Sequence record: NC_100371.1
Reading direction: 5' to 3' (one strand)
Origin: a phage
Length of the DNA stretch: 64,000 nt
Below the pieces are notes generated by a model that saw only the letters and a list, made by a program, of their open reading frames with translations, made no database searches and had not been told where the DNA came from. Of the stretch, positions 10,650 through 23,824 are shown piece after piece (the stretch's first letter is position 1; every line of letters begins with the position of its first letter). The translations under genes were made by a program, and so were the position numbers.

Positions 10650-11741
10650 TTAGATAAAACGCTTGAACATAGAAGGTGATGAGATTGATGGAATCACACA
10701 AGGCAGCGCTACCTCCTCTTTCTCCAGGAAATTAATCGCAGAAGCTACACAGTCGGCCCAGTCGTCTTTTCTGTTAAATGTTGATCTTTCCCCGTTGAAC
10801 TTTTCAAGTTCAGTCAGAAATGCTTCCAGAGTGTCAGGATGGAAACTGGATTTTACAATCCTCACCATTCCTTGTTGGGCAAGATTGGCAAAAGGTGAGA
10901 ACCTTGTCAGTTTAGATTTGTTGGAAGGCATTGGATCTTCTTCAACCCTGAACCCTTCGGCGAGCAAGGATCTGGACGAGGTTAAGAATTCACTCTTACC
11001 TGCCTGACCGGGGTCCACAGAAAATACGATTATGCAATCATCTCCATCAAACTGCGCCTGTTTCCTGATGATCACATCTCGTTCCCCAGCCTTTTTACAG
11101 AACTTACCTTCCAGACCTGTGGAATACCTACCGTCATCCACGTTCTCAGGACAATAATCTCCGGACAGGTAATAAAAGCCGTCGCTATCTTTACTTACCT
11201 TAACACTGGCGGTAAAGTCAGGAAATTTATTACCGGAAGTTCTCTCGGTTCCTGCTTTATCCCATGCCCTGCAAGATACTGATCCAAGAGGTACTCTATC
11301 GGCATCACGAAGGAAAGATCTTTGGAAATAGTTTGCACCCTCAGGTTTGGCAAACCAGTTGCCATGAAGAAGCTGGGCTTTTTCAAGCTCTGGCAGACCT
11401 TCAAGGAAAGCAAGGTATTCTGGGTTGTCTCTCAAGCAGACAGGGTTATCGAAAATTGTTGCTCCTATAAACGAGAATGACAACGGTCTTGGCTTGATCT
11501 CCACACCCAGTCCGTTAACCGTGGTGTATTTCTCTATTAACTCTTCTTTAGAGTCTCCCCAAATAAATTCACCGTCGCGTCGGATAAAATATCTTTTCTT
11601 ACCACATTTCTCCGGATCTGGATACCCTTCATCGTCCAACCACCACCTGACCAGTTTGGCAAGCATGTGTTCTGAGTCGGGGTTACAACTGATAACCATT
11701 CTTGATGGATACTTTGACTGAGATCGCAGACGAGACATCAA
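10650..11741 (-). CDS. terL: terminase large subunit, C-terminal part (exon 2, nuclease domain)
   Basis: Begins ...MVISCNPDSEH (ATPase coupling motif) and continues through a nuclease-like domain; frame is open upstream to about 11774 (TTQFEWEQIDYL). Confidence 0.7.
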   Translation of the reverse strand: MMSRLRSQSKYPSRMVISCNPDSEHMLAKLVRWWLDDEGYPDPEKCGKKRYFIRRDGEFIWGDSKEELIEKYTTVNGLGVEIKPRPLSFSFIGATIFDNPVCLRDNPEYLAFLEGLPELEKAQLLHGNWFAKPEGANYFQRSFLRDADRVPLGSVSCRAWDKAGTERTSGNKFPDFTASVKVSKDSDGFYYLSGDYCPENVDDGRYSTGLEGKFCKKAGERDVIIRKQAQFDGDDCIIVFSVDPGQAGKSEFLTSSRSLLAEGFRVEEDPMPSNKSKLTRFSPFANLAQQGMVRIVKSSFHPDTLEAFLTELEKFNGERSTFNRKDDWADCVASAINFLEKEEVALPCVIPSISSPSMFKRFI

Positions 11742-11774
11742 ATAGTCTATCTGCTCCCATTCGAATTGCGTCGT

Positions 11775-12651
11775 TTATGTTCGGGCAAGGTCGCTAGTCT
11801 TGCCCCGCCATTTTCAGGCAGCTGCATGTCTCCATGCAGACCAGACTATATCTTATGAATGTGCAAATACTCTGCTGCTCTAAGAATGGTTTCCTCATCC
11901 TCTTGGAAGAAACCTAAAGCTCTGTTGCATTTATCACAAAGCAACCCTCTTACAGCACCAGTTTTATGGTCATGATCAACACAAAAGAAATCTCTGTACC
12001 CTTGCGTCCTATACTCATCAAGAGATATTCTACAAATGGCACACTTATGATCTTGATCTGAGAGTAAGCGATAGTATTCATCTTTTGTTATGTGAAATTT
12101 CTTCTCAATCTGATAAAACTTTTCACACATCTTACACCTGTTCGTAACCAGATACACTTTACCATAGTCACGTTTTGTGTAAAAACTATCAGCAAGCATA
12201 CTTTCATGACAAGATTTACATTCAAAAAGCTCACCTTTCTTCAGTAAGTCTTGAATAAAAGATGCTGCATCATCTCTCTTAACCATATTTTTGTTTCTAC
12301 GAGATCCATTCTTCCTGTAGTACATATAGCATTCCTTGCATGTACCGGAGTATCCATCCTTGCTCTTAGATGATAAAAAGAAATCATCAAGAGGTAGAAC
12401 TCTTTGGCAATCCATACATTTTTTAGTATTACACATTCACCCTCCCGTTTCGAATCGCTTGATTCTACGTCTTTCGACTAGTCGTTGAACGTTCATCCTT
12501 TCGGATGCTTCGCTGCGGATTATCTAAATTAACACACTGTTACCATACCTTCGATCTCTCTTCGAAGCCTCTATCATGTTACCATGACAGGTTGGTGGTG
12601 TCAATAATAAAGATTTCCCCGCAATTAGGGAGGTTTTACGAGAGCTACAAA
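11775..12651 (-). mobile_element. putative group I intron (with homing endonuclease ORF) interrupting the terminase large subunit gene
   Basis: About 0.9 kb separates the two TerL parts; exon 1 ends GGU followed by in-frame UAA; contains HNH ORF 11846-12436; boundaries approximate. Confidence 0.5.
11846..12436 (-). CDS. HNH homing endonuclease (Endonuclease VII family)
   Basis: 196 aa; N-terminal Cys-rich zinc finger (CMDCQ...CKEC) and C-terminal CVDHDHKTGAVRGLLCDKCN motif. Confidence 0.75.
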   Translation of the reverse strand: MCNTKKCMDCQRVLPLDDFFLSSKSKDGYSGTCKECYMYYRKNGSRRNKNMVKRDDAASFIQDLLKKGELFECKSCHESMLADSFYTKRDYGKVYLVTNRCKMCEKFYQIEKKFHITKDEYYRLLSDQDHKCAICRISLDEYRTQGYRDFFCVDHDHKTGAVRGLLCDKCNRALGFFQEDEETILRAAEYLHIHKI

Positions 12652-13080
12652 TTAACCCTCATCGAAGCAAACCATGGTGTACTCAAGTCCTTGATGGTTA
12701 AGCTTATCTTGGACATACTCCATGTGGCAGTATTTTACAACAGCTCCTTTTTTGCTCCTGTCCCACTTGCCAGTGCTCGGATCAAACCGTGGAAAAATAA
12801 ACTTATGATCCTTCTCTCTGAACTTTGGTTTAATGTTTTCAGGCAGATCACTGTAAATAGCTACTGCTTTAGGCCATAGCCCACCCTCACCTTCCAACTG
12901 TGGAGTTGTTCTTCGGAACATAACCACAGAGCTGTGTGGGTCATCAATAATTTTAAGCGGCATCAACTGCAGGAGGAACGACTTACCTGACCCAGCCGCA
13001 CCACCAATGACAAGAATGTCTGCATCGTTTTCCAGGATCATCTTCTGCTTTTCAGAACACGGTCCGTAAATCTTAGACAT
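12652..13080 (-). CDS. terL: terminase large subunit, N-terminal ATPase part (exon 1)
   Basis: Walker A GGAAGSGKS, Walker B-like MVCFDEG immediately followed by a stop codon. Confidence 0.75.
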   Translation of the reverse strand: MSKIYGPCSEKQKMILENDADILVIGGAAGSGKSFLLQLMPLKIIDDPHSSVVMFRRTTPQLEGEGGLWPKAVAIYSDLPENIKPKFREKDHKFIFPRFDPSTGKWDRSKKGAVVKYCHMEYVQDKLNHQGLEYTMVCFDEG

Positions 13081-14184: not shown

Positions 14185-14261
14185 TGGTCTCCACGGAGTG
14201 ATTCGAACACTCGACCTCCTGATCCCAAATCAGGCGCTCTACCAAGCTGAGCTACGCGGAG
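14185..14261 (-). tRNA. tRNA-Pro (anticodon UGG)
   Basis: Cloverleaf by eye: acceptor CTCCGCG/CGTGGAG (C1-G72 typical of Pro), anticodon loop TTTGGGA, T-loop GTTCGAATC, CCA encoded. Confidence 0.75.
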
Positions 14262-14272
14262 TATTTATTATT

Positions 14273-14347
14273 TGGTGGCCCTGGGTGGAATTGAACCACC
14301 GTCTGGCGATTATGAGTCGCTTGCTTGAACCTTCCAGCTACAGGGCC
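14273..14347 (-). tRNA. tRNA-Met (anticodon CAU; initiator/elongator/Ile-lysidine not distinguished)
   Basis: acceptor GGCCCTG/CAGGGCC, anticodon loop CTCATAA, T-loop GGTTCAATTCC, CCA encoded. Confidence 0.75.
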
Positions 14348-14348
14348 A

Positions 14349-14424
14349 TGGTGCTGATGGCAGGACTTGAACCTGCAACCTATTGATTACAAATCAATTG
14401 CACTGCCAATTGTGCTACATCAGC
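14349..14424 (-). tRNA. tRNA-Thr (anticodon UGU)
   Basis: acceptor GCTGATG/CATCAGC, anticodon arm ATTGA-TTTGTAA-TCAAT, T-arm GCAGG-TTCAAGT-CCTGC, CCA encoded. Confidence 0.75.
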
Positions 14425-14428
14425 AAAA

Positions 14429-14527
14429 GGTGCTAGGTGATGGAATCGAACCATCTATGTATTCAACGACTACCTCGTCTATTTTCAGGATTAAAAATCC
14501 TCGCCCTTGCCAAAGGGCTTACCTAGC
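14429..14527 (-). tRNA. atypical tRNA-like gene (99 nt; anticodon loop reads UUU; possibly degenerate or insert-containing)
   Basis: perfect acceptor GCTAGGT/ACCTAGC, D-arm GCCC-TTTGGCAA-GGGC, canonical T-arm GATGG-TTCGATT-CCATC, but about 30 nt between anticodon arm and T-arm. Confidence 0.4.
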
Positions 14528-14625
14528 TCAGCATGTTGACCATGTTGCTAGTCGGCGATGACGACTGTAACATTTGATAATCCGGTTCTGCTTCCGGCTT
14601 TCGCTTAATTACAAGGTCAACAATA

Positions 14626-14716
14626 TGGCAGAGGATAATGGAATCGAACCATCATCGAGTCATCCTCAACGGGACGGTTTTCAAGACCGCTTGAGCACCA
14701 TTGCTCCCTACCCTCT
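14626..14716 (-). tRNA. tRNA-Ser (anticodon UGA), type II
   Basis: acceptor AGAGGGT/ATCCTCT, anticodon arm GCGGT-CTTGAAA-ACCGT, long variable arm TTGAG-GATGA-CTCGA, T-loop GGTTCGATTCC, CCA encoded. Confidence 0.7.
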
Positions 14717-14830
14717 TTTATAAACAATACTGATAATGACACTGATTTTCGAGCAGTTAGTGACTAGTATAAACGACGATAAATATCAATGCCATTATCT
14801 GTATGATTTATGCATTTAAAAATATAAATT

Positions 14831-14918
14831 TGGTGGTGAGTGATGGAGTCGAACCACCCGAATCGCAATGATAACAGATTTACAGTCTGCCCCGCTACCC
14901 CTACGGAATTAACTCACC
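14831..14918 (-). tRNA. tRNA-Tyr (anticodon GUA), type II
   Basis: acceptor GGTGAGT/ACTCACC, anticodon arm GCAGA-CTGTAAA-TCTGT, long variable arm, T-loop TTCGACT, CCA encoded. Confidence 0.7.
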
Positions 14919-15048
14919 TAAATACTAATATTTAAATTCTTTTTAAAATAGCTAGTGTTCTAACCACTAACTATGAGGTATCGGTAAAGTGGTTACCGCC
15001 ACTTGCCGAAGATTTACTCTGCTAAAGTAAGCTACATTAAAAAGAACT

Positions 15049-15123
15049 TGGCACCCCGTACTGGACTCGAACCAGTGTCAACGGCTTAGAAGGCCGCTGC
15101 TTTATCCACTAAGCTAACAGGGC
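15049..15123 (-). tRNA. tRNA-Arg (anticodon UCU)
   Basis: acceptor GCCCTGT/ACGGGGT, anticodon arm GCGGC-CTTCTAA-GCCGT, T-arm ACTGG-TTCGAGT-CCAGT, CCA encoded. Confidence 0.7.
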
Positions 15124-18059: not shown

Positions 18060-18614
18060 TTACTCCCCGCTGTCAATAGCAAGACTCATTGCAATACGGT
18101 ATGCCTCTTCTAATGGTAAGAGTCTCCCCCACACATCCCAACCGACATCAAACTGCCTGCCAAACAACTGCTGTGTGGTTCCGTGAGCATGACCGAACAG
18201 TTGGACTGATCCGTGAGGCTTTCTGTTCCACTTTGCAAACTGGTAATGGCTCATACAGATCAAATTCTTGTTGTGGCGAAGCTCGTAATAATCTACAACC
18301 TCATGACCGAACTCTTTCATAATTCTGACAGTCGTCCTTGTGTCATGGTTACCACGAACAAGAATAATATGTCCGTTCAACATATTTAGAACATCTGGAA
18401 GCAATTTGTTGATATTCTTATCATTAGTGCACGCAATATCCCCCAAGTGAAACACAGTGTCTGCAGGTGACACAACAGAGTTCCACTTGGTGATGATTCC
18501 CGCATTCATACTGTCAAGATTGTGATCATACTGAGATCTGTGTTTTTGACATGAGTCGAACTCCATTACCCGCTGGTGGAGAAAGTGTGTGTCGCTTGTT
18601 ACAAAGTATTTCAT
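18060..18614 (-). CDS. calcineurin-like metallophosphoesterase (candidate polynucleotide 3'-phosphatase)
   Basis: Motifs DTHF, GDIACTND, GNHD, GHAH; start at internal ATG 18614 with GAGGA RBS (MKYFVTSDTHF...). Confidence 0.6.
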   Translation of the reverse strand: MKYFVTSDTHFLHQRVMEFDSCQKHRSQYDHNLDSMNAGIITKWNSVVSPADTVFHLGDIACTNDKNINKLLPDVLNMLNGHIILVRGNHDTRTTVRIMKEFGHEVVDYYELRHNKNLICMSHYQFAKWNRKPHGSVQLFGHAHGTTQQLFGRQFDVGWDVWGRLLPLEEAYRIAMSLAIDSGE

Positions 18615-18621
18615 ACATTCC

Positions 18622-19032
18622 TCATTTAAGTTTAATGCAGTTTTTAAGCTGGCGTTCCATACGATCCACAACCCTGTCTGGAACATCATGAATGCTTTTA
18701 TTACCATGGCGGTTTTCAACCACGATCACGGTATAACTATATCCATGACTGATCGCCATGTCAATATATTCTTGCACATATTTTTCTTTTGTAAACGTAT
18801 TACTTACCACGATACGGTCGTAGCCCATACGCATCATATCTTCTACGTTATCTTTGCACCATTTTGCTGCAAGTGTTACTTTACTTGCATCCCAATTGTA
18901 ATTGCCGTCATCGTCGTACCAGAACATATCGTTCTCAAAATGTGGATACAGACCTTCTAAAGATAGCGCATTTGCCAGTGTTGATTTGCCAGACCCTGGT
19001 AGACCACGCACGATATATAGCATTTTAGACAT
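18622..19032 (-). CDS. P-loop polynucleotide 5'-kinase-like protein
   Basis: Walker A GLPGSGKST as in T4 Pnk kinase domain (GCPGSGKST); start at ATG 19032 with GGAG RBS (MSKMLYIVRG...). Confidence 0.6.
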   Translation of the reverse strand: MSKMLYIVRGLPGSGKSTLANALSLEGLYPHFENDMFWYDDDGNYNWDASKVTLAAKWCKDNVEDMMRMGYDRIVVSNTFTKEKYVQEYIDMAISHGYSYTVIVVENRHGNKSIHDVPDRVVDRMERQLKNCIKLK

Positions 19033-19060
19033 AGTAACTCTCCGTTTTAATTTTAATGAT

Positions 19061-19089
19061 AGTATACCTAACTGTTTTGTTAATTTCAA
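19061..19089 (-). promoter_or_regulatory. sigma70-like promoter (TTGAAA-N17-TATACT) for kinase/phosphoesterase operon
   Basis: minus-strand TTGAAA at 19089-19084 and TATACT at 19066-19061. Confidence 0.5.
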
Positions 19090-19092
19090 GTG

Positions 19093-19121
19093 TTGACACC
19101 AGGTTATTTGTGTGGCAGAAT
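19093..19121 (+). promoter_or_regulatory. candidate divergent sigma70-like promoter (TTGACA-N17-CAGAAT) for RNA ligase gene
   Basis: TTGACA at 19093-19098; weak -10. Confidence 0.35.
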
Positions 19122-19132
19122 AAAGGGACAAA

Positions 19133-20068
19133 ATGACAAATGAGGAATGTATGATGAAGTATTTTAATGCAGACGACCTGGTTGACAAAGGTCTTGTAAC
19201 CAGCAGATATTACCCAGATCTTGGATTAAAGATCTACAAATATGCCAGAAAAGTATTCTACAACAATTTATGGCATTTGTCTCCGCGTTTACTAGAGTGC
19301 CGAGGCATTGTTGTCGGTAATGAAGGAAATGTTGTGGCATGGCCCTTCACAAAAGTGTTTAATTTGGGAGAAAACTCCACCAACCTGCCTGACAATAAAC
19401 TTGTGACGGCGGTAGAGAAAAAGAACGGATTCCTTGGTGTGGTATCATCTCATAAAGGTGAACTATTGTTTTCAACAACCGGGTCTCTTGATTCTCCATA
19501 TTGTAACCTTGCAAAGGAAACCATCCAGGAGCAATGTGGTAATTTAGATCTTATCAAGAAGGTTATGGGCCATGAAAACATGACATTCATGTTTGAAATT
19601 TGTCACCCTTCAGATCCGCATATTGTTCAGGAAGATCATGGCGCATATTTGATAGGTTGCAGATATAATGATTCTGGAATAATGCTACCAGAAGCAGCTT
19701 TAGATGGGATTGCCAAATACCTTGGTGCAAAACGTCCTCACACTGTGCGTGAAATTCCGTTCAGCTATGCAAAAGAATTAGCTGCAGAAACAAGGGGTGA
19801 AGGGTATATGATCCGTAAGCCTTACTACCCTTATGACCTGCAACTAAAGATCAAGTCTCCCTACTATCTGGCACGGAAGGCCGTAATGAGGTGTAGAGCT
19901 TGGAAGATTTGGGATGATGATATCTTTAAACGTGTTGACGAAGAGTTTTACGGCATGGTAAACTTCATTCGTAGGAACTACACAGAAGATGTGTGGAATT
20001 GCCTCCTGGAGCAGGAACGCCGTGAGATACTTGACTGCTATTTCCACAACGAGGACTATATGCAATGA
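19133..20068 (+). CDS. RNA ligase (T4 Rnl1/RnlA-like)
   Basis: Collinear with T4 Rnl1: LECRGIVVG, KVFNLGEN, adenylation lysine motif EKKNGFL, LKIKSPYY; likely true start at ATG about 19151 after GAGGA. Confidence 0.8.
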   Translation: MTNEECMMKYFNADDLVDKGLVTSRYYPDLGLKIYKYARKVFYNNLWHLSPRLLECRGIVVGNEGNVVAWPFTKVFNLGENSTNLPDNKLVTAVEKKNGFLGVVSSHKGELLFSTTGSLDSPYCNLAKETIQEQCGNLDLIKKVMGHENMTFMFEICHPSDPHIVQEDHGAYLIGCRYNDSGIMLPEAALDGIAKYLGAKRPHTVREIPFSYAKELAAETRGEGYMIRKPYYPYDLQLKIKSPYYLARKAVMRCRAWKIWDDDIFKRVDEEFYGMVNFIRRNYTEDVWNCLLEQERREILDCYFHNEDYMQ

Positions 20069-20415
20069 AGAAGTTGATTGTGTGGCTTGATGATTTTAGA
20101 GATCCGTCAGATTATGGACTACCAGACGCTCTGTGGCTGAAGAATTCTTCTGAGTTTATGGATTTTCTTAATGATAAGAGAAAGCTCTACAGACGCGTAT
20201 CTGAGTGGTATTTTGACAATGATCTAGGGGAAGTGCTTGAAGGGTACGACTGCTTCTCTGCGCTAGAGGAGAAACTTGTATTCGGAAAGCCACCACTTAT
20301 TGACAACGTGATTATTTTCGTGCATACTTCTAATCCATCGGCAGCTCGTAAATTTATGCTTGCTGCTGACTCATTCAAGAAGTTTGGAATAGAGATCAAA
20401 CAAAACATCTACTAA
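20065..20415 (+). CDS. hypothetical small alpha/beta protein, possible partner of the downstream Sir2 gene
   Basis: 116 aa; alternating beta/alpha segments (LIVWLDD, YFDNDLG, IIFVHTSNP); start overlaps RNA ligase stop; no family recognised. Confidence 0.4.
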   Translation: MKKLIVWLDDFRDPSDYGLPDALWLKNSSEFMDFLNDKRKLYRRVSEWYFDNDLGEVLEGYDCFSALEEKLVFGKPPLIDNVIIFVHTSNPSAARKFMLAADSFKKFGIEIKQNIY

Positions 20416-20423
20416 GGACATTT

Positions 20424-21185
20424 ATGCGACGACTTATTGTTATTTCTGGTGCTGGCTTGAGCGCAGAATCTGGGATCCCAACTTTTCGTTCTGGTCAAAC
20501 TGCAATGTGGGAGAATTTCAGCATCGATGAGGTGTGTAACATCCACACCTTTGCCAAGAACTACTATAAGGTGCATGACTTTTACAATGCACGGCGTGTA
20601 GCTCTGGGCAGTGTTGATCCTAACCTTGCACATCTCCGGATCGCTGAGTGGTATTCACGTTGGTCTGGTCGTGTGATCAACCTGACAACCAATGTAGATG
20701 ATTTGCTGGAGCGTGCTGGTGTTAAACATGAAGATATCTTACATGTCCACGGGTATTTGCCTGAAATCACCTACGAAGATGCTGAAGGTAATGATGTAAT
20801 TAAAAATATCGGATACACGGAGGTAGATACAGGCAAGTATACTTGGGTTAAGCCCAATGTGGTGTTCTTCGGTGAGGTTGCTCCTAAGTATACAGACATG
20901 TATGACCTATTGACATCTCTTACCAGCAATGATATGGTGATCCTGGTGGGTTGTTCTAACACAGTTATTAATTTTAACTGGGAATTGTTTCCTGCTACTT
21001 GTAAAGGCACAAAACTACTGATTGTAAACAAGTATGATTCGCAGAGTGCAGATGGAAGCGGCATTTCACGTAGCGACCTTTATCAATATGAGGATCGCGG
21101 GATCCCGGTTTGGTTTAACGGGGCGGTTGATGCTTTCTCTGATAAAACATTCATTGAGACCGTAGAAAACTTTATGGAACTTTAA
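20424..21185 (+). CDS. Sir2-family NAD-dependent protein deacylase / ADP-ribosyltransferase
   Basis: Sirtuin motifs GAGLSAESGIPTFR, TTNVDDL, catalytic His in LHVHGYL; canonical Zn-binding CxxC pairs not evident. Confidence 0.75.
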   Translation: MRRLIVISGAGLSAESGIPTFRSGQTAMWENFSIDEVCNIHTFAKNYYKVHDFYNARRVALGSVDPNLAHLRIAEWYSRWSGRVINLTTNVDDLLERAGVKHEDILHVHGYLPEITYEDAEGNDVIKNIGYTEVDTGKYTWVKPNVVFFGEVAPKYTDMYDLLTSLTSNDMVILVGCSNTVINFNWELFPATCKGTKLLIVNKYDSQSADGSGISRSDLYQYEDRGIPVWFNGAVDAFSDKTFIETVENFMEL

Positions 21186-21198
21186 AAGGAGACCTTTA

Positions 21199-21912
21199 AT
21201 GCTGAATACCAAATTAATTGACAACCTGGAAAAACTGTCCCAGCCTGAAAACTACCTTTGGTCTGCCAACTGGGTGGAAAACTGGAACCGTGTAGCAGCT
21301 AAAGTGAAAAAATCATACACACCATTCGAACTTCAGCTGAGTTTCATTGAGGAAGAGTTCAATGAGGTTTTGGAAGAGTTGGAGAAAGGTGATGGTGGGG
21401 ATCATCTCCTAAAAGAGGCCTGCGATCTTCATGTTGTCACAAGTTATGCCGCTTATCTTGTTAACGATAACCATGAAAAGTGGTCAAACCTGTTTGATAA
21501 TCCGCGAGGTCTTAAGTTTAAGATCGGTGAATTTTATGATACACTGATCGCTGCGAAAAATACCTCTAAGCAAAGAGCGTCTGCTTACCGCTTAGCAGAG
21601 TTGTCAACAGCTTTGCTGTTCCAGCTTCGCGGTGATGTGTGCGGGATGATGCGGAAGGTTCTAAAATCTAATGACAGCAAGTTTGCACGCGTCAACCATC
21701 TGCGGTATTCACACGGTGCCAGTGCAGATATGCCTGCTGAACAACTCATCGAGTTGGAGATTAAAGATCTTGAGCGACGCTTTGATGGTCGCTATGAAGG
21801 TTTTGTTGCTAAAGAAGAATTCTACAACGGAAATAAAGTTATCATATTCCTTGACAGTAAAGGTAAGATTATGAAGCCTTCAAGCTTCAAAGATGTAACA
21901 GAATATATTTAA
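21199..21912 (+). CDS. MazG-like nucleoside triphosphate pyrophosphohydrolase
   Basis: All-alpha NTP-PPase style acidic motif EEEFNEVLEELEKGD...EACDLHVV. Confidence 0.5.
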   Translation: MLNTKLIDNLEKLSQPENYLWSANWVENWNRVAAKVKKSYTPFELQLSFIEEEFNEVLEELEKGDGGDHLLKEACDLHVVTSYAAYLVNDNHEKWSNLFDNPRGLKFKIGEFYDTLIAAKNTSKQRASAYRLAELSTALLFQLRGDVCGMMRKVLKSNDSKFARVNHLRYSHGASADMPAEQLIELEIKDLERRFDGRYEGFVAKEEFYNGNKVIIFLDSKGKIMKPSSFKDVTEYI

Positions 21913-21976
21913 TAACATAGCCGGGGCGATCCCGGCTTTACTTGTTTCGGAAAGTATGCAAGTGAGGTAGAAAGTT

Positions 21977-22285
21977 ATGTACAAGCACTCCAGAGATCTT
22001 GAAAACGATGATGTGTTTGGGGATCAGATGAAAGAATTGGTTAAACTTATAGGTAGGATAGAGGATAAGTTTGACACTAAGATCTACATCGACAGTAAAG
22101 TATTCAACCACAAAATATGGACAAATCTGTGTGTTGGACTGCATGGAGATAAAGATGTGGTAAATTTGGTTGTAATTAAGTTCATAGTGTGGCAGAATAA
22201 AACTATAAATTATTACGATCCACACCCACTTGTTTACCCGATAAAAGACCTATTAGAGAAGGAGGACTGCAATGCAGTTATTTAA
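21977..22285 (+). CDS. hypothetical protein
   Basis: 102-aa ORF with RBS. Confidence 0.35.
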   Translation: MYKHSRDLENDDVFGDQMKELVKLIGRIEDKFDTKIYIDSKVFNHKIWTNLCVGLHGDKDVVNLVVIKFIVWQNKTINYYDPHPLVYPIKDLLEKEDCNAVI

Positions 22286-22541
22286 TCTTGCTAAACCTGT
22301 AGAAGCACACCAGTTTGACGGAAGCTCTTCATCAGTATCTGATCTGCAACGGTGGATTGATACAGGTGTGTTTACACCGTCACCTGTTCGGACCAGAGAT
22401 ATTCTTCGCATGTGTGAGCTTGTCGAGCCGTTTGGTAACCTGGTCTTGTACCAAGGGGATTGGTTAGTTGACTTTATGGGAGACTGGTTGGTAATTAGCA
22501 AAGAAGAGATGTTTAAAATTTTTAAGGAAGAGGCTGAGTAA
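22272..22541 (+). CDS. hypothetical protein
   Basis: 89-aa ORF, RBS AAGGAGGA upstream. Confidence 0.4.
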   Translation: MQLFNLAKPVEAHQFDGSSSSVSDLQRWIDTGVFTPSPVRTRDILRMCELVEPFGNLVLYQGDWLVDFMGDWLVISKEEMFKIFKEEAE

Positions 22542-23824
22542 TGCATCAGATCAAAACAACACTGTACGCACTGAACAAAGATGGCAGCTACCAACAGTGG
22601 AAAGTATTCACGGATGGTGATAAGGTTATCGTAGAGTTTGGCAAGCTTGATGGTAAACTGCAATACAAAGAGACGATCTGCACACCTAAGAACGTGGGTC
22701 GTGCCAATGAAACTACAGCTGAGCAACAGGCTGAGCTGGAAGCGATCAGTAAGTGGGAAAAACAAGTCCGTCTGGGGTATGTTGAAAATATGGAAGATTG
22801 CGAGCAGGGTGTTGACCTTTTACCCATGTTGGTGCATGACTACCTGAAGCGTGGAAAGGCACTTAAATTACCTTGCTGGATTTTGCGTAAGTTAGATGGC
22901 CTTCGTCTACTGGTTGTTTTCCAAAACGGTGAGCCTAAATTTATTTCCCGTGGTAATAAGTCCTACCCTATTCAAGGAAAGCTTCTGGAGCAACTTCGTT
23001 CTTTCCACTTCACCACCGGGATTAAACAGCTCGACGGAGAGATCTATATTCATGGTCTGCCTCTGCAGAAAATAGTGTCTCTTGCTAAACGGTGGCGCAC
23101 ACAGGAAGAGATTCAGGCCGAGATCGATAAAGACTACGAGGCAGATAAAAAACGCCGTCATGCCGCAATTAAGGCAGGCTTATCAACATACAAAAACTTC
23201 AATAAGGTAGATATTCCTGTTGATGTTGAGCCTGTTCGTGATGATTTGCGTTACGGAGGGTACTGTAGCTATGACTTAGAGTATCATATTTTCGACATCC
23301 CTAGTGACAAGGTATGGTGGGATCCAGAAACAGAATCTGGACGATGCAAGGATCTTATGGATGCAGAAGATACCATTACCACCCTGATGCTTGACCATAT
23401 CAAGGTTGTTGACGCAGAGCTTGCGTACACAGTTGATCATTGCGAAGAATCTGTTGGTGTATTCATGTCCGAAGGATATGAAGGTACTATCATGCGTAAC
23501 TTCTGTGGTAAATATGAATATGGTCAGCGAACATCTGAAGCATTGAAATGGAAAAAGTTCAACGATGCTGAGGTGAAAGTTATTGACGTTGAGAAAGATA
23601 AGAATGATGAAGGTGTTCTTATCTGCGTTGACAAGGAAGGTATCGTTGTTAAAATGAAGATGAAAGGCACGCACGAGGAGCGTAGCTATGACAGGATGCA
23701 GGAAATGATCGGCAAGTTTATCACCTTCAAATATCAAGCAAGGACAGAAGACAACAACTACCAATTCCCTGTCGGCATCTGCGTCCGAAATGTTAACCCT
23801 GACACTTGGGAGGTTCTGGAATGA
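22541..23824 (+). CDS. ATP-dependent DNA ligase
   Basis: Nucleotidyltransferase motifs: I RKLDGLR, III LDGEIYIHG, IV YEGTIMR, V LKWKKF. Confidence 0.7.
   Translation: MHQIKTTLYALNKDGSYQQWKVFTDGDKVIVEFGKLDGKLQYKETICTPKNVGRANETTAEQQAELEAISKWEKQVRLGYVENMEDCEQGVDLLPMLVHDYLKRGKALKLPCWILRKLDGLRLLVVFQNGEPKFISRGNKSYPIQGKLLEQLRSFHFTTGIKQLDGEIYIHGLPLQKIVSLAKRWRTQEEIQAEIDKDYEADKKRRHAAIKAGLSTYKNFNKVDIPVDVEPVRDDLRYGGYCSYDLEYHIFDIPSDKVWWDPETESGRCKDLMDAEDTITTLMLDHIKVVDAELAYTVDHCEESVGVFMSEGYEGTIMRNFCGKYEYGQRTSEALKWKKFNDAEVKVIDVEKDKNDEGVLICVDKEGIVVKMKMKGTHEERSYDRMQEMIGKFITFKYQARTEDNNYQFPVGICVRNVNPDTWEVLE

What the first reader, a model, noticed from the sequence alone, without database searches (positions are those of the whole stretch)
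20065..21912. Phage-encoded Sir2-family protein with a small uncharacterised upstream partner and a MazG pyrophosphohydrolase
ORF 20424-21185 has the canonical sirtuin core (GAGLSAESGIPTFR, TTNVDDL, catalytic His in HVHGYL) but no obvious Zn-binding CxxC pairs. It is translationally coupled to a 116-aa alpha/beta protein of unknown family and followed by a MazG-like NTP pyrophosphohydrolase, directly beside the RNA-repair genes. Sir2 domains usually appear as NAD-depleting effectors in bacterial defence systems; a phage-borne copy with a dedicated small partner suggests an NAD-dependent host-modifying or counter-defence activity. This locus is my best candidate for an undescribed system.
Basis: partly seen in the sequence, partly recalled or inferred. 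Interest (0 to 1): 0.75.

Follow-up and report, generated by a model that had tools for sequence, protein, structure and literature searches.

The report
Phage RNA-repair operon containing a sirtuin
The Sir2 gene, its small neighbour and the MazG-like gene are real, but they belong to a six-gene RNA-break-repair cluster of rV5-like E. coli phages that was described computationally in 2021-2022, so this is not a new system, although nobody has yet tested what the sirtuin actually does.

Summary
ORFs 20065-20415, 20424-21185 and 21199-21912 are real, conserved genes, and the Sir2 has all its catalytic motifs but no zinc-binding cysteines.

The interpretation mostly does not hold.
- The three genes plus the upstream Rnl1 RNA ligase form one operon (19133-21937). 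A polynucleotide-kinase-like gene and a calcineurin-type phosphoesterase are transcribed divergently from it.
- Iyer et al. 2022 (PMC9503650, section 3.7.3) describe this exact neighbourhood, with 'Escherichia phage V5' as prototype. They predict an NAD+-using RNA repair system in which the sirtuin removes 2'-phosphates as KptA/Tpt1 does. The window is a Vequintavirus, 90-96% identical to 121 GenBank phages.
- cREC is not a dedicated Sir2 partner. It stays with ligase and phosphoesterase genes where Sir2 lies 33 kb away (phi92-like phages), and T5-like phages carry Sir2 without cREC.
- The Sir2 resembles the deacylases CobB and SIRT5, not defence NADases.

I found no biochemical test of the sirtuin or cREC. 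Verdict: already known in silico, function untested. Interest is low to moderate.

The parts
18060..18614 (-). Calcineurin-like metallophosphoesterase (184 aa from the ATG at 18614). Candidate enzyme for healing 2',3'-cyclic-phosphate or 3'-phosphate RNA ends.
   Evidence: Pfam Metallophos/Metallophos_2 at 4-5e-6 and phrog_547 at 5e-52. Co-clusters with cREC in L003, L008, L010-L021 and L023.
18622..19032 (-). Stand-alone P-loop kinase resembling polynucleotide 5'-kinase (136 aa, Walker A GLPGSGKST).
   Evidence: Pfam AAA_33 at 2.8e-10, phrog_2071 at 1e-58 and phrog_505 'polynucleotide kinase' at 3e-10. Relatives annotate it as polynucleotide kinase.
19036..19132 (.). Divergent intergenic region with promoter-like sites facing both ways (+ 19093-19121; - 19089-19061 and 19083-19056).
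   Evidence: Consensus scan and sequence. These are pattern matches only, not shown to be functional.
19133..20068 (+). T4 Rnl1-type RNA ligase (311 aa), first gene of the operon.
   Evidence: Pfam RNA_lig_T4_1 at 8e-15 and phrog_562 at 1.7e-65. Its stop codon overlaps the cREC start (ATGA).
20065..20415 (+). cREC: divergent receiver-fold protein (116 aa), predicted cyclic-phosphate phosphoesterase.
20424..21185 (+). Zinc-less class III-like sirtuin (253 aa), the NAD+-using enzyme of the cluster.
   Evidence: Pfam SIR2 at 5e-28. Closest PDB sequences are CobB 1s5p at 2.9e-21 and SIRT5. AF2 model pLDDT 89; Foldseek top hit CobB at E 3e-19, TM 0.75. F21, R22, Y54, R57, R58, N90, D92, H109, F148, F149 and E151 are invariant. 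No zinc-binding Cys tetrad.
21199..21912 (+). MazG/PRA-PH-superfamily pyrophosphohydrolase-like protein (237 aa). Its C-terminal part (about 100-237) has no assigned family.
   Evidence: phrog_671 at 5e-22. PRA-PH hit in 19/19 and MazG in 15/19 family members. Orthologues pass the curated cut-offs. Profile against PDB: MazG 3crc E 0.08, HisE 1yvw E 0.14. E52, E53, E56, D76, SNDSK (157-161) and 222-GKIxKP-227 are invariant.
21919..21947 (+). Terminator-like GC-rich hairpin (AGCCGGGGCGATCCCGGCT) followed by a T-rich tail, which closes the four-gene operon.
   Evidence: Terminator scan and sequence.
22541..23824 (+). ATP-dependent DNA ligase. A constant neighbour of the cluster; it is unclear whether it takes part in the same process.
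   Evidence: Pfam DNA_ligase_A_M plus the OB domain, and phrog_114 at 2e-82. Present beside cREC, phosphoesterase and MazG-like genes in L003, L008, L010-L017 and L019-L021.

Best explanation
The finding is one part of a phage RNA (probably tRNA) break-repair module. The module consists of an operon Rnl1 ligase - cREC - Sir2 - MazG-like (19133-21937) and a divergent pair, polynucleotide-kinase-like gene and metallophosphoesterase (18060-19032).

Proposed mechanism:
1. Host ribonucleases cut tRNA or other RNA, leaving 2',3'-cyclic-phosphate and 5'-OH ends.
2. The kinase phosphorylates the 5' end.
3. cREC and/or the metallophosphoesterase open the cyclic phosphate.
4. Rnl1 seals the break.
5. 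The sirtuin uses NAD+ to remove a leftover 2'-phosphate, as Tpt1/KptA does, giving nicotinamide and an ADP-ribose cyclic phosphate.
6. cREC, the phosphoesterase and the MazG-like pyrophosphatase then break down that by-product. In jumbo phages a Nudix enzyme takes the place of the MazG-like protein.

Shown here: gene identities, folds, conserved catalytic residues, operon layout and the conservation patterns.
Inferred: every enzymatic step. The Sir2 step is the least certain. This is the model of Iyer et al. 2022, not a new one.
For: 1. Compact operon. ATGA overlap between Rnl1 and cREC, 8-nt and 13-nt gaps with ribosome-binding sites, and a terminator-like hairpin straight after the MazG-like stop.
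2. The whole set (phosphoesterase, Rnl1, cREC, kinase, Sir2, DNA ligase, MazG-like) is kept within about 9 kb, in shuffled order, in Klebsiella/Mydo-type phages and IMG/VR contigs whose cREC is only 58-64% identical (L003, L010-L016).
3. The same Sir2 clade sits beside three non-homologous sets of RNA-end enzymes:
   - the set above;
   - the HAD_SAK_2 'Swiss Army Knife' phosphatase in T5-like phages (5e-20, 3.8e-19);
   - Nudt16-like Nudix plus cREC in jumbo phages, fused in GAP32 (cREC 3.7e-24) and separate in SHEFM2K (1.5e-22), with a 2H-fold protein two genes upstream in GAP32.
4. cREC copies about 30% identical still lie next to an RNA ligase of a different family (PF09414, L022) or a metallophosphoesterase (L023).
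5. Sir2 keeps every NAD-pocket and catalytic residue invariant, plus the anion-binding Y54/R57 pair of class III sirtuins.
6. No Macro-domain gene is adjacent.
7. A phage tRNA cluster lies 3 kb away.
8. The published prediction matches gene for gene.
Against: - I found no biochemistry for the phage sirtuin, cREC or the MazG-like protein.
- The kinase, metallophosphoesterase and Rnl1 could in principle heal and seal a break without any NAD-dependent step (my knowledge of the T4 Pnkp/Rnl1 and Clostridium thermocellum Pnkp pathways).
- The Sir2's nearest sequence and structural relatives are true protein deacylases.
- Sir2 is detached from the cREC/ligase cluster in phi92-like phages, where they lie 33 kb apart.
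- Henunavirus keeps Sir2 and the rest of the cluster but has no detectable cREC.
- Part of the argument rests on partner families (HAD_SAK_2, cREC) whose RNA-repair roles are themselves only predicted.
Confidence: 0.45

Rival explanations
1. The Sir2 is an ordinary CobB-like NAD+-dependent protein deacylase that remodels host or phage protein acylation (for example, activating acetyl-CoA synthetase). It lies in the RNA-repair operon only because it is expressed at the same time. This is the hypothesis of Skliros et al. 2016.
For: - The best PDB sequence and fold matches are E. coli CobB, archaeal Sir2-Af1 and SIRT5.
- The catalytic His, the FGE loop and the class III Tyr/Arg pair that binds acidic acyl groups are all invariant.
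- Sir2 is unlinked from the repair cluster in phi92-like phages, and in ukendt and nt-1 it has no recognisable partner.
- The published proposal comes with transcript data.
Against: - The same Sir2 clade recurs beside three unrelated sets of RNA-end-processing enzymes in distant phage lineages, which is hard to explain by co-expression alone.
- The family has lost the zinc ligands of the small domain, which helps form the peptide-binding cleft in canonical sirtuins. It has also changed the invariant TQNID motif to TTNVD.
- No deacylase assay has been reported.
Confidence: 0.3
2. The module, or part of it, counters NAD/ADP-ribose-based immunity rather than repairing RNA. cREC plus the pyrophosphatase (MazG-like or Nudix) would destroy cyclic ADP-ribose-type immune signals or ADP-ribose adducts. 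The sirtuin would act as an ADP-ribosyltransferase or NAD-processing enzyme in the same conflict.
For: - The cREC family is also predicted to process cyclic ADP-ribose derivatives, and it is fused to Nudix in jumbo phages.
- A protein matching Pfam Acb1 (anti-CBASS, 2H fold, 5.7e-16) lies two genes upstream of Sir2 in GAP32.
- NAD+-salvage genes sit next to the cluster in Klebsiella phage Iguana and in GAP32.
Against: - cREC's most constant neighbours are RNA ligases and phosphoesterases, not NAD enzymes.
- Nothing in the window's operon is a known anti-defence protein.
- No experimental support was found.
Confidence: 0.12
3. One reading: a previously undescribed two-gene system in which a phage Sir2 effector, related to NAD-depleting defence Sir2 proteins, works with a dedicated small partner.
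For: - The two genes are adjacent and closely spaced in the window and in all Vequintavirus relatives.
- Sir2 and cREC are also linked in jumbo phages.
Against: - Already described in the literature.
- The pair is not conserved as a pair.
- No defence-type SIR2 match in PADLOC or among the top 50 structural neighbours.
- The protein is a stand-alone 253-aa sirtuin core with no sensor domain.
Confidence: 0.04

Closest known systems
Sirtuin-centred NAD+-utilising phage RNA-repair neighbourhood, type 2 ('Escherichia phage V5 / Proteus phage Mydo'), Iyer, Burroughs, Anantharaman & Aravind 2022 (PMC9503650, section 3.7.3, Fig. 5f)
   Same: Same genus (Vequintavirus) and the same gene set: sirtuin, T4-like RNA ligase, cREC, nucleotide kinase, MazG-superfamily pyrophosphatase and calcineurin-like phosphoesterase, with no adjacent Macro domain.
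Phage T4 Pnkp + Rnl1 tRNA repair pathway (countering the PrrC anticodon nuclease)
   Same: An Rnl1-type ligase together with a 5'-kinase activity, encoded by a lytic E. coli phage.
   Different: The kinase is a stand-alone protein. The end-healing phosphatase is calcineurin-type rather than the HAD domain of T4 Pnkp. Three further genes (cREC, Sir2, MazG-like) have no T4 counterpart. The comparison with T4 rests on my own knowledge of that pathway.
Fungal/plant tRNA ligase + Tpt1 (KptA) pathway
   Same: The predicted logic: open the cyclic phosphate to a 2'-phosphate, ligate, remove the 2'-phosphate with NAD+, then degrade ADP-ribose 1''-2'' cyclic phosphate.
   Different: No homology. Tpt1 has an ADP-ribosyltransferase fold whereas this enzyme is a Rossmann-fold sirtuin. 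cREC has a receiver fold, not a 2H fold. There is no Macro domain. The activity is unproven.
Class III sirtuins: E. coli CobB, human SIRT5
   Same: Fold (TM about 0.75), GAGxS, FR, N/D, HG and FGE motifs, and the Tyr-x-x-Arg pair.
   Different: Only about 27% identity. The zinc-binding cysteines are lost across the whole family. TQNID reads TTNVD. There is a C-terminal extension of about 50 residues. The gene lies in a phage RNA-repair context.
Defence-system SIR2 NADases (Thoeris ThsA, DSR1/2, SIR2-HerA, SIR2-pAgo)
   Same: Membership of the SIR2 superfamily only.
   Different: No fused or partnered sensor domain. No PADLOC match. None of these appears in the top 50 structural hits. The gene is phage-encoded inside a repair operon.
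Response-regulator receiver (REC/CheY) domains
   Different: 8-20% identity. No histidine kinase or output domain is present. It has its own invariant residues (R12, H87, N90). It occurs with RNA ligases and phosphoesterases instead.

Membership tests
Sirtuin / SIR2 family (Pfam PF02146) | Rossmann NAD-binding core with the GAGxS and FR cofactor-loop motifs | tested here: met
   GAGLSAESGIPTFR is present. G9, A10 and G11 are in 56/57 sequences; S16, G17, F21 and R22 are invariant. Pfam E 5.4e-28, 98.6 bits against a cut-off of 24.
Sirtuin / SIR2 family (Pfam PF02146) | Catalytic His (HG) and the Asn/Asp of the TQNID motif | tested here: met
   H109, G110, N90 and D92 are invariant in 57 sequences. 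The Gln of TQNID is replaced by an invariant Thr (TTNVD).
Sirtuin / SIR2 family (Pfam PF02146) | Zinc-binding small domain with four Cys ligands | tested here: not met
   No CxxC pair. Residues 110-146 contain 0-2 Cys in all 57 family members. CobB's Cys-rich stretch has no counterpart in the alignment. The model keeps a confident beta-sheet module at this position.
Sirtuin / SIR2 family (Pfam PF02146) | NAD+-dependent deacylase or ADP-ribosyltransferase activity | not testable with these tools
   No biochemical report found.
Class III sirtuins (CobB/SIRT5 type) | Tyr-x-x-Arg pair that binds an anionic acyl group | tested here: met
   Y54 and R57 (FYNARR) are invariant and align with FYNARR of CobB. 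The role of this pair in SIRT5 is from my own knowledge.
Sirtuin-centred phage RNA-repair neighbourhood, type 2 (Iyer et al. 2022) | [quoted passage not shown] | tested here: met
   All six are identified within 18060-21912. The same set is found in L003 and L010-L016.
Sirtuin-centred phage RNA-repair neighbourhood, type 2 (Iyer et al. 2022) | No adjacent Macro-domain gene (which distinguishes it from sirtuin-Macro toxin-antitoxin pairs) | tested here: met
   None of the ten neighbouring proteins hits a Macro family.
Sirtuin-centred phage RNA-repair neighbourhood, type 2 (Iyer et al. 2022) | KptA/Tpt1-like removal of RNA 2'-phosphate by the sirtuin | not testable with these tools
   This is a prediction in the source paper, and no assay was found.
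cREC (Pfam PF20274, cyclic-phosphate processing receiver domain) | Sequence match above the curated threshold | tested here: met
   E 1.1e-13, 52.1 bits against a cut-off of 27. 54 of the 55 homologues carry PF20274; the one without is a 63-aa fragment.
cREC (Pfam PF20274, cyclic-phosphate processing receiver domain) | Receiver-like fold with conserved aspartates, and no histidine-kinase partner | tested here: met
cREC (Pfam PF20274, cyclic-phosphate processing receiver domain) | Cyclic phosphodiesterase activity | not testable with these tools
   The source papers state that it is experimentally uncharacterised.
MazG / all-alpha NTP pyrophosphohydrolase superfamily (PF03819, PF01503) | Sequence match to MazG or PRA-PH with the acidic EExxE...D metal-binding motif | tested here: inconclusive
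   The window's copy is below threshold (PRA-PH E 0.084, 13.7 bits against 21.3). Orthologues P0124 and P0135 pass both cut-offs, and 19/19 members hit PRA-PH. E52, E53, E56 and D76 are invariant. The profile against PDB gives only E 0.08 to MazG.
Defence-type SIR2 NADase effectors (ThsA, DSR, SIR2-HerA, SIR2-pAgo) | Match to a defence-system SIR2 model, and a fused or adjacent sensor or partner (SLOG, HerA, pAgo, DSR C-terminal domain) | tested here: not met
   PADLOC gives only one noise-level hit (E 0.0094, no stretch passing on its own). The protein is a 253-aa stand-alone core. None of the top 50 fold matches is a defence SIR2.
Tpt1/KptA RNA 2'-phosphotransferase (ADP-ribosyltransferase fold) | Homology to the KptA/Tpt1 family | tested here: not met
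   The protein has the SIR2 Rossmann fold. Any resemblance to Tpt1 would be functional only.

The most novel reading that the evidence does not exclude
The phage sirtuin acts on nucleic acid rather than protein. It would transfer ADP-ribose from NAD+ to a phosphate on an RNA end (2'-phosphate removal like Tpt1, or ADP-ribose capping of a terminal phosphate). cREC would be a receiver-fold cyclic phosphodiesterase that works with a MazG or Nudix pyrophosphatase to clear the ADP-ribose cyclic-phosphate product. That would be the first RNA-directed sirtuin and the first enzymatic (non-signalling) receiver domain of this kind. The idea is already published as a prediction, so only its demonstration would be new.
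Probability: 0.3. Interest if true: 0.7.

Novelty: already known. Interest (0 to 1): 0.3.

Why it matters
As a discovery it matters little. The locus, its components and a mechanistic hypothesis are already in the literature and partly in GenBank annotation.

Its remaining value is as a clean experimental target. This sirtuin clade occurs in about 1000 sequenced phages, including T5-like, rV5-like, phi92-like, KVP40-like and jumbo phages, and its function is unknown. Two published hypotheses can be told apart with simple assays: protein deacylase or Tpt1-like RNA 2'-phosphotransferase. A positive result for the second would extend sirtuin chemistry to RNA. It would also add an NAD+-dependent branch to phage tRNA repair, which is relevant to how phages survive anticodon-nuclease defences.

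Tried and rejected
1. **Defence-type Sir2 reading.** Rejected. PADLOC shows no match and the fold neighbours are deacylases.
2. **'Dedicated partner' reading.**
   - I compared the small ORFs immediately upstream of Sir2 in eight lineages. None matches the cREC profile and no family is shared across lineages. Only the T5-like phages share their own ORF of about 120 aa (phrog_11748).
   - cREC follows the ligase/phosphoesterase cluster, not Sir2.
3. **NADAR hunch.** I suspected from its motif pattern that the 161-aa ORF in the cREC slot of Erwinia Henunavirus (L008 7079-7564) was a NADAR domain. This is not supported: no Pfam hit even at E 10, phrog_652 has unknown function, and there is no PDB sequence hit.
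4. **MazG check by profile comparison** with the annotated 'MazG-like' protein of Vibrio phage nt-1. Uninformative, because that protein is not itself recognisable as MazG.
5. **Exhaustive profile search** to widen the MazG-like family. It never ran because the queue was full on three tries.
6. **Single-sequence PDB searches** for cREC and the MazG-like protein. Nothing significant.
7. **NAD+-salvage genes in the window upstream of the locus.** None found at 8.5-17 kb. That region holds portal, protease, a split terminase and tRNAs.
8. **Rfam scan of 13.5-24.5 kb.** Only tRNAs.
9. **Literature searches for experimental work** on phage sirtuins or cREC. None found. One search failed on a formatting rule and one on term length.


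Full report
**1. Observation**

The 253-aa protein contains GAGLSAESGIPTFR, TTNVDDL and HVHGYL. It hits Pfam SIR2 at 5.4e-28 and phrog_2162 at 2e-108. Its only cysteines are C38, C177 and C193, and it has no CxxC pair.

These are conserved genes, not chance ORFs. 121 phage records match the stretch 19000-23000 at 90-96% nucleotide identity, and 114 of them cover at least 80% of it. The relatives include FV3, FFH2, JES2013, Murica, slur16 and the BASEL phages AlexBoehm and EduardKellenberger. All are members of the genus Vequintavirus, whose type species is V5. The window is therefore an rV5-like E. coli myovirus.

**2. What the three proteins are**

*The 116-aa protein is not of unknown family.*
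- It hits Pfam PF20274 (cREC_REC, 'cyclic-phosphate processing receiver domain') at 1.1e-13, 52 bits against a cut-off of 27.
- 54 of its 55 database homologues carry the same domain.
- An AlphaFold2 model built on 41 sequences has pLDDT 93.
- The alignment keeps the receiver active-site layout. D9 and D10 follow strand 1. Invariant D51 and D53 (FDNDLG) follow strand 3. VHTSNP follows strand 4. K96 is invariant. R12, H87 and N90 are family-specific invariants.

*The Sir2 resembles the class III deacylases.*
- Its closest solved sequences are E. coli CobB (1s5p, 2.9e-21) and SIRT5.
- Its model (pLDDT 89, pTM 0.88) matches CobB, Sir2-Af1 and SIRT5 best (E down to 3e-19, TM about 0.75, about 27% identity). 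No defence-type SIR2 appears in the top 50, and PADLOC gives no defence-family match.
- Across 57 family members, the NAD-pocket and catalytic residues are invariant: S16, G17, F21, R22, N90, D92, H109, G110, F148, F149 and E151. So is the class III Tyr/Arg pair (Y54, R57).
- The Gln of TQNID is an invariant Thr.
- No member has more than 2 Cys where the zinc tetrad should be.
- The small domain is still modelled as a confident beta-sheet module.

*The MazG assignment is right at family level but weak for this copy.*
- The window's protein scores only E 0.084 against PRA-PH.
- All 19 family members hit PRA-PH and 15 hit MazG.
- Orthologues 55% identical to it pass both curated cut-offs.
- A family profile finds MazG (3crc, E 0.08) and HisE (1yvw, E 0.14) as its best PDB hits, aligned on the EExxE...D motif.
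- E52, E53, E56 and D76 are invariant.
- Only about 50 residues are explained in this way. The C-terminal part, with its invariant SNDSK and GKIxKP motifs, has no assigned family.

**3. Surroundings and operon**

Upstream on the same strand lies an Rnl1-type RNA ligase (19133-20068; Pfam 8e-15, phrog_562 1.7e-65).

Transcribed divergently are two genes:
- a P-loop polynucleotide-kinase-like gene (18622-19032);
- a calcineurin-like phosphoesterase (18060-18614).

The junctions show a compact operon:
- The ligase stop overlaps the cREC start (ATGA).
- cREC and Sir2 are 8 nt apart, with an AAGGA ribosome-binding site.
- Sir2 and the MazG-like gene are 13 nt apart, with AAGGAG.
- A GC-rich hairpin with a T-rich tail (21919-21947) follows the MazG-like stop.

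The unit is therefore Rnl1-cREC-Sir2-MazG-like, which is larger than the finding's coordinates. Rfam finds no structured RNA in the locus. A phage tRNA cluster lies at 14.2-15.1 kb.

**4. It is already described**

[quoted passage not shown] In it the sirtuin is coupled to:
[quoted passage not shown] - occasionally a calcineurin-like phosphoesterase.

They propose that the sirtuin acts like KptA/Tpt1 in removing 2'-phosphates.

Earlier and related records:
- cREC was defined in their 2021 jumbo-phage paper (PMC7824862).
- Skliros et al. 2016 (PMC5107563) had already noted that phage Sir2/CobB proteins lack zinc ligands. They proposed a protein-deacetylase role, with modelling and transcript data only.
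- A recent GenBank record (phage HMD-6) labels all six genes, including the cREC name.

I found no biochemical or genetic test of any of these proteins.

**5. Independent co-occurrence test**

tblastn finds this Sir2 in 1011 phage records and cREC in 359. I fetched 25 neighbourhoods and scored them with profiles.

| Lineage (loci) | What lies with Sir2 and cREC |
|---|---|
| rV5-like and Klebsiella/Mydo-type (L003, L010-L016) | All seven genes within about 9 kb, in shuffled order |
| Erwinia Henunavirus (L008) | The full set but no detectable cREC |
| T5-like (KEY, SP15, rokbiter) | Sir2 with the HAD_SAK_2 'Swiss Army Knife' RNA-repair phosphatase; no cREC, no ligase |
| Jumbo phages (GAP32, SHEFM2K) | Sir2, then Nudt16-like Nudix, then cREC (fused in GAP32); a 2H/Acb1-like protein upstream in GAP32 |
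| phi92-like (L017, L019-L021) | cREC, phosphoesterase, DNA ligase and MazG-like genes (plus Rnl1 and kinase in L019 and L020); no Sir2 within 10 kb |
| Distant cREC copies, about 30% identical (L022, L023) | An RNA ligase of a different family (PF09414) or a metallophosphoesterase |

In phi92-like genomes the Sir2 is 33 kb from the cREC cluster: in ukendt, cREC at 89.7 kb and Sir2 at 56.6 kb; in ESCO13, 53.5 and 20.0 kb.

These results reproduce all three published neighbourhood types. They also add a nuance: cREC's constant partners are RNA ligases and phosphoesterases, so it is not a dedicated Sir2 partner. No small ORF is shared upstream of Sir2 across lineages.

**6. Mechanism**

The best-supported reading is a heal-and-seal RNA repair module that counters host ribonucleases leaving 2',3'-cyclic-phosphate and 5'-OH ends.
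- The kinase phosphorylates the 5' end.
- cREC and/or the metallophosphoesterase open or remove the cyclic phosphate.
- Rnl1 seals the break.

The proposed NAD-dependent branch has the sirtuin removing a residual 2'-phosphate, as Tpt1 does. cREC, the phosphoesterase and a pyrophosphatase would then degrade the ADP-ribose cyclic-phosphate by-product.

One small point supports a pyrophosphate-containing intermediate. A pyrophosphatase is present in both architectures, but from unrelated families: MazG-like here and Nudix in jumbo phages.

All the enzymatic steps are inferred. The Sir2 step is the weakest, for three reasons:
- The kinase, phosphoesterase and ligase could suffice on their own (my knowledge of the T4 and C. 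thermocellum pathways).
- The nearest relatives of the Sir2 are true deacylases.
- Sir2 is unlinked from the cluster in one lineage.

I put about 0.45 on the full model. I put higher confidence, about 0.75-0.8, on the locus as a whole being an RNA-end repair module.

Rivals:
- a CobB-like protein deacylase that is co-expressed with the module (0.3);
- a role against NAD/ADP-ribose-based immune signalling (0.12);

**7. Verdict**

It fails on three points: the system is not undescribed, the partner is not dedicated to Sir2, and the Sir2 is not related to the defence NADases.

Novelty: already known as a computational prediction, in the very genus named as prototype.

Interest: low to moderate (0.3). 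It rests only on the fact that the published hypotheses remain untested and could be resolved with simple assays.

Noticed in passing
window 10650-13080 (- strand): The terminase large subunit appears split. The N-terminal part (12652-13080) matches Terminase_6N positions 2-104. The rest (10650-11741) matches 6N positions 117-211 plus 6C. Between them lies an Endonuclease VII-domain ORF (11846-12436). This looks like a homing-endonuclease or intron-type insertion.
   Followed up: no
window 14185-15123 (- strand): A phage tRNA cluster (Pro-TGG, Met-CAT, Thr-TGT, Ser-TGA, Arg-TCT) lies about 3 kb from the repair genes. At 14429-14527 there is an odd tRNA-like gene of 97-99 nt for which ARAGORN calls a 4-base anticodon. 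Rfam finds a further tRNA-like hit at 14834-14918 that ARAGORN misses, while ARAGORN's Ser gene (14626-14716) is not listed by Rfam.
   Followed up: partly
L003 583-3130 (Klebsiella phage Iguana); L006 2679-5885 (Cronobacter phage GAP32): NAD+-salvage genes sit a few kb from the Sir2 repair cluster in relatives. Iguana has nicotinamide phosphoribosyltransferase plus a ribose-phosphate pyrophosphokinase-like gene. GAP32 has NMN adenylyltransferase/Nudix plus nicotinamide phosphoribosyltransferase. This suggests that NAD+ supply is coupled to NAD+ use. No such genes were found at 8.5-17 kb of the window.
   Followed up: partly
L008 7079-7564 (Erwinia phage pEa_SNUABM_55, Henunavirus): This relative keeps the phosphoesterase, Rnl1, kinase, Sir2, DNA ligase and MazG-like genes but has no detectable cREC. 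A 161-aa ORF of unknown function (phrog_652, 3.8e-34) occupies the slot between kinase and Sir2. It may be a non-homologous replacement. My NADAR guess was not supported.
   Followed up: yes
window 21199-21912, residues about 100-237: The C-terminal two-thirds of the MazG-like protein has strictly conserved motifs (SNDSK at 157-161 and 222-GKIxKP-227) but matches no Pfam or PDB family. It may be a substrate-recognition domain specific to this cluster.
   Followed up: partly
window 22541-23824, with 21977-22285 and 22272-22541: An ATP-dependent DNA ligase and two small ORFs (102 aa, phrog_7684; 89 aa, phrog_14585) travel with the repair cluster. The DNA ligase is beside cREC, phosphoesterase and MazG-like genes even in phi92-like phages that have no Sir2 nearby. 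Homologues of both small ORFs are present in L003 and L008.
   Followed up: partly
GenBank records MG065642-MG065692 (hits H8-H10, H31, H32, H34, H42, H77 and others): About 18-25 unannotated records named 'Campylobacter phage', with host given as Campylobacter jejuni, are 94-99.6% identical to this E. coli Vequintavirus locus, or carry T5-like and phi92-like versions. The labels probably reflect contamination or mislabelling.
   Followed up: no
L001 7652-8008, L002 7239-7619, L009 7222-7581 (T5-like phages): T5-like phages share their own conserved ORF of 118-126 aa upstream of Sir2 (phrog_11748, mutual E 1e-12 to 1e-46). It has unknown function and is unrelated to cREC.
   Followed up: partly
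L006 7276-7722 (Cronobacter phage GAP32): A 148-aa protein two genes upstream of the GAP32 Sir2 matches Pfam Acb1 (anti-CBASS 2H phosphodiesterase) at 5.7e-16 and the 2'-5' RNA ligase superfamily at 1.3e-5. It could process RNA cyclic phosphates or degrade immune cyclic nucleotides.
   Followed up: no
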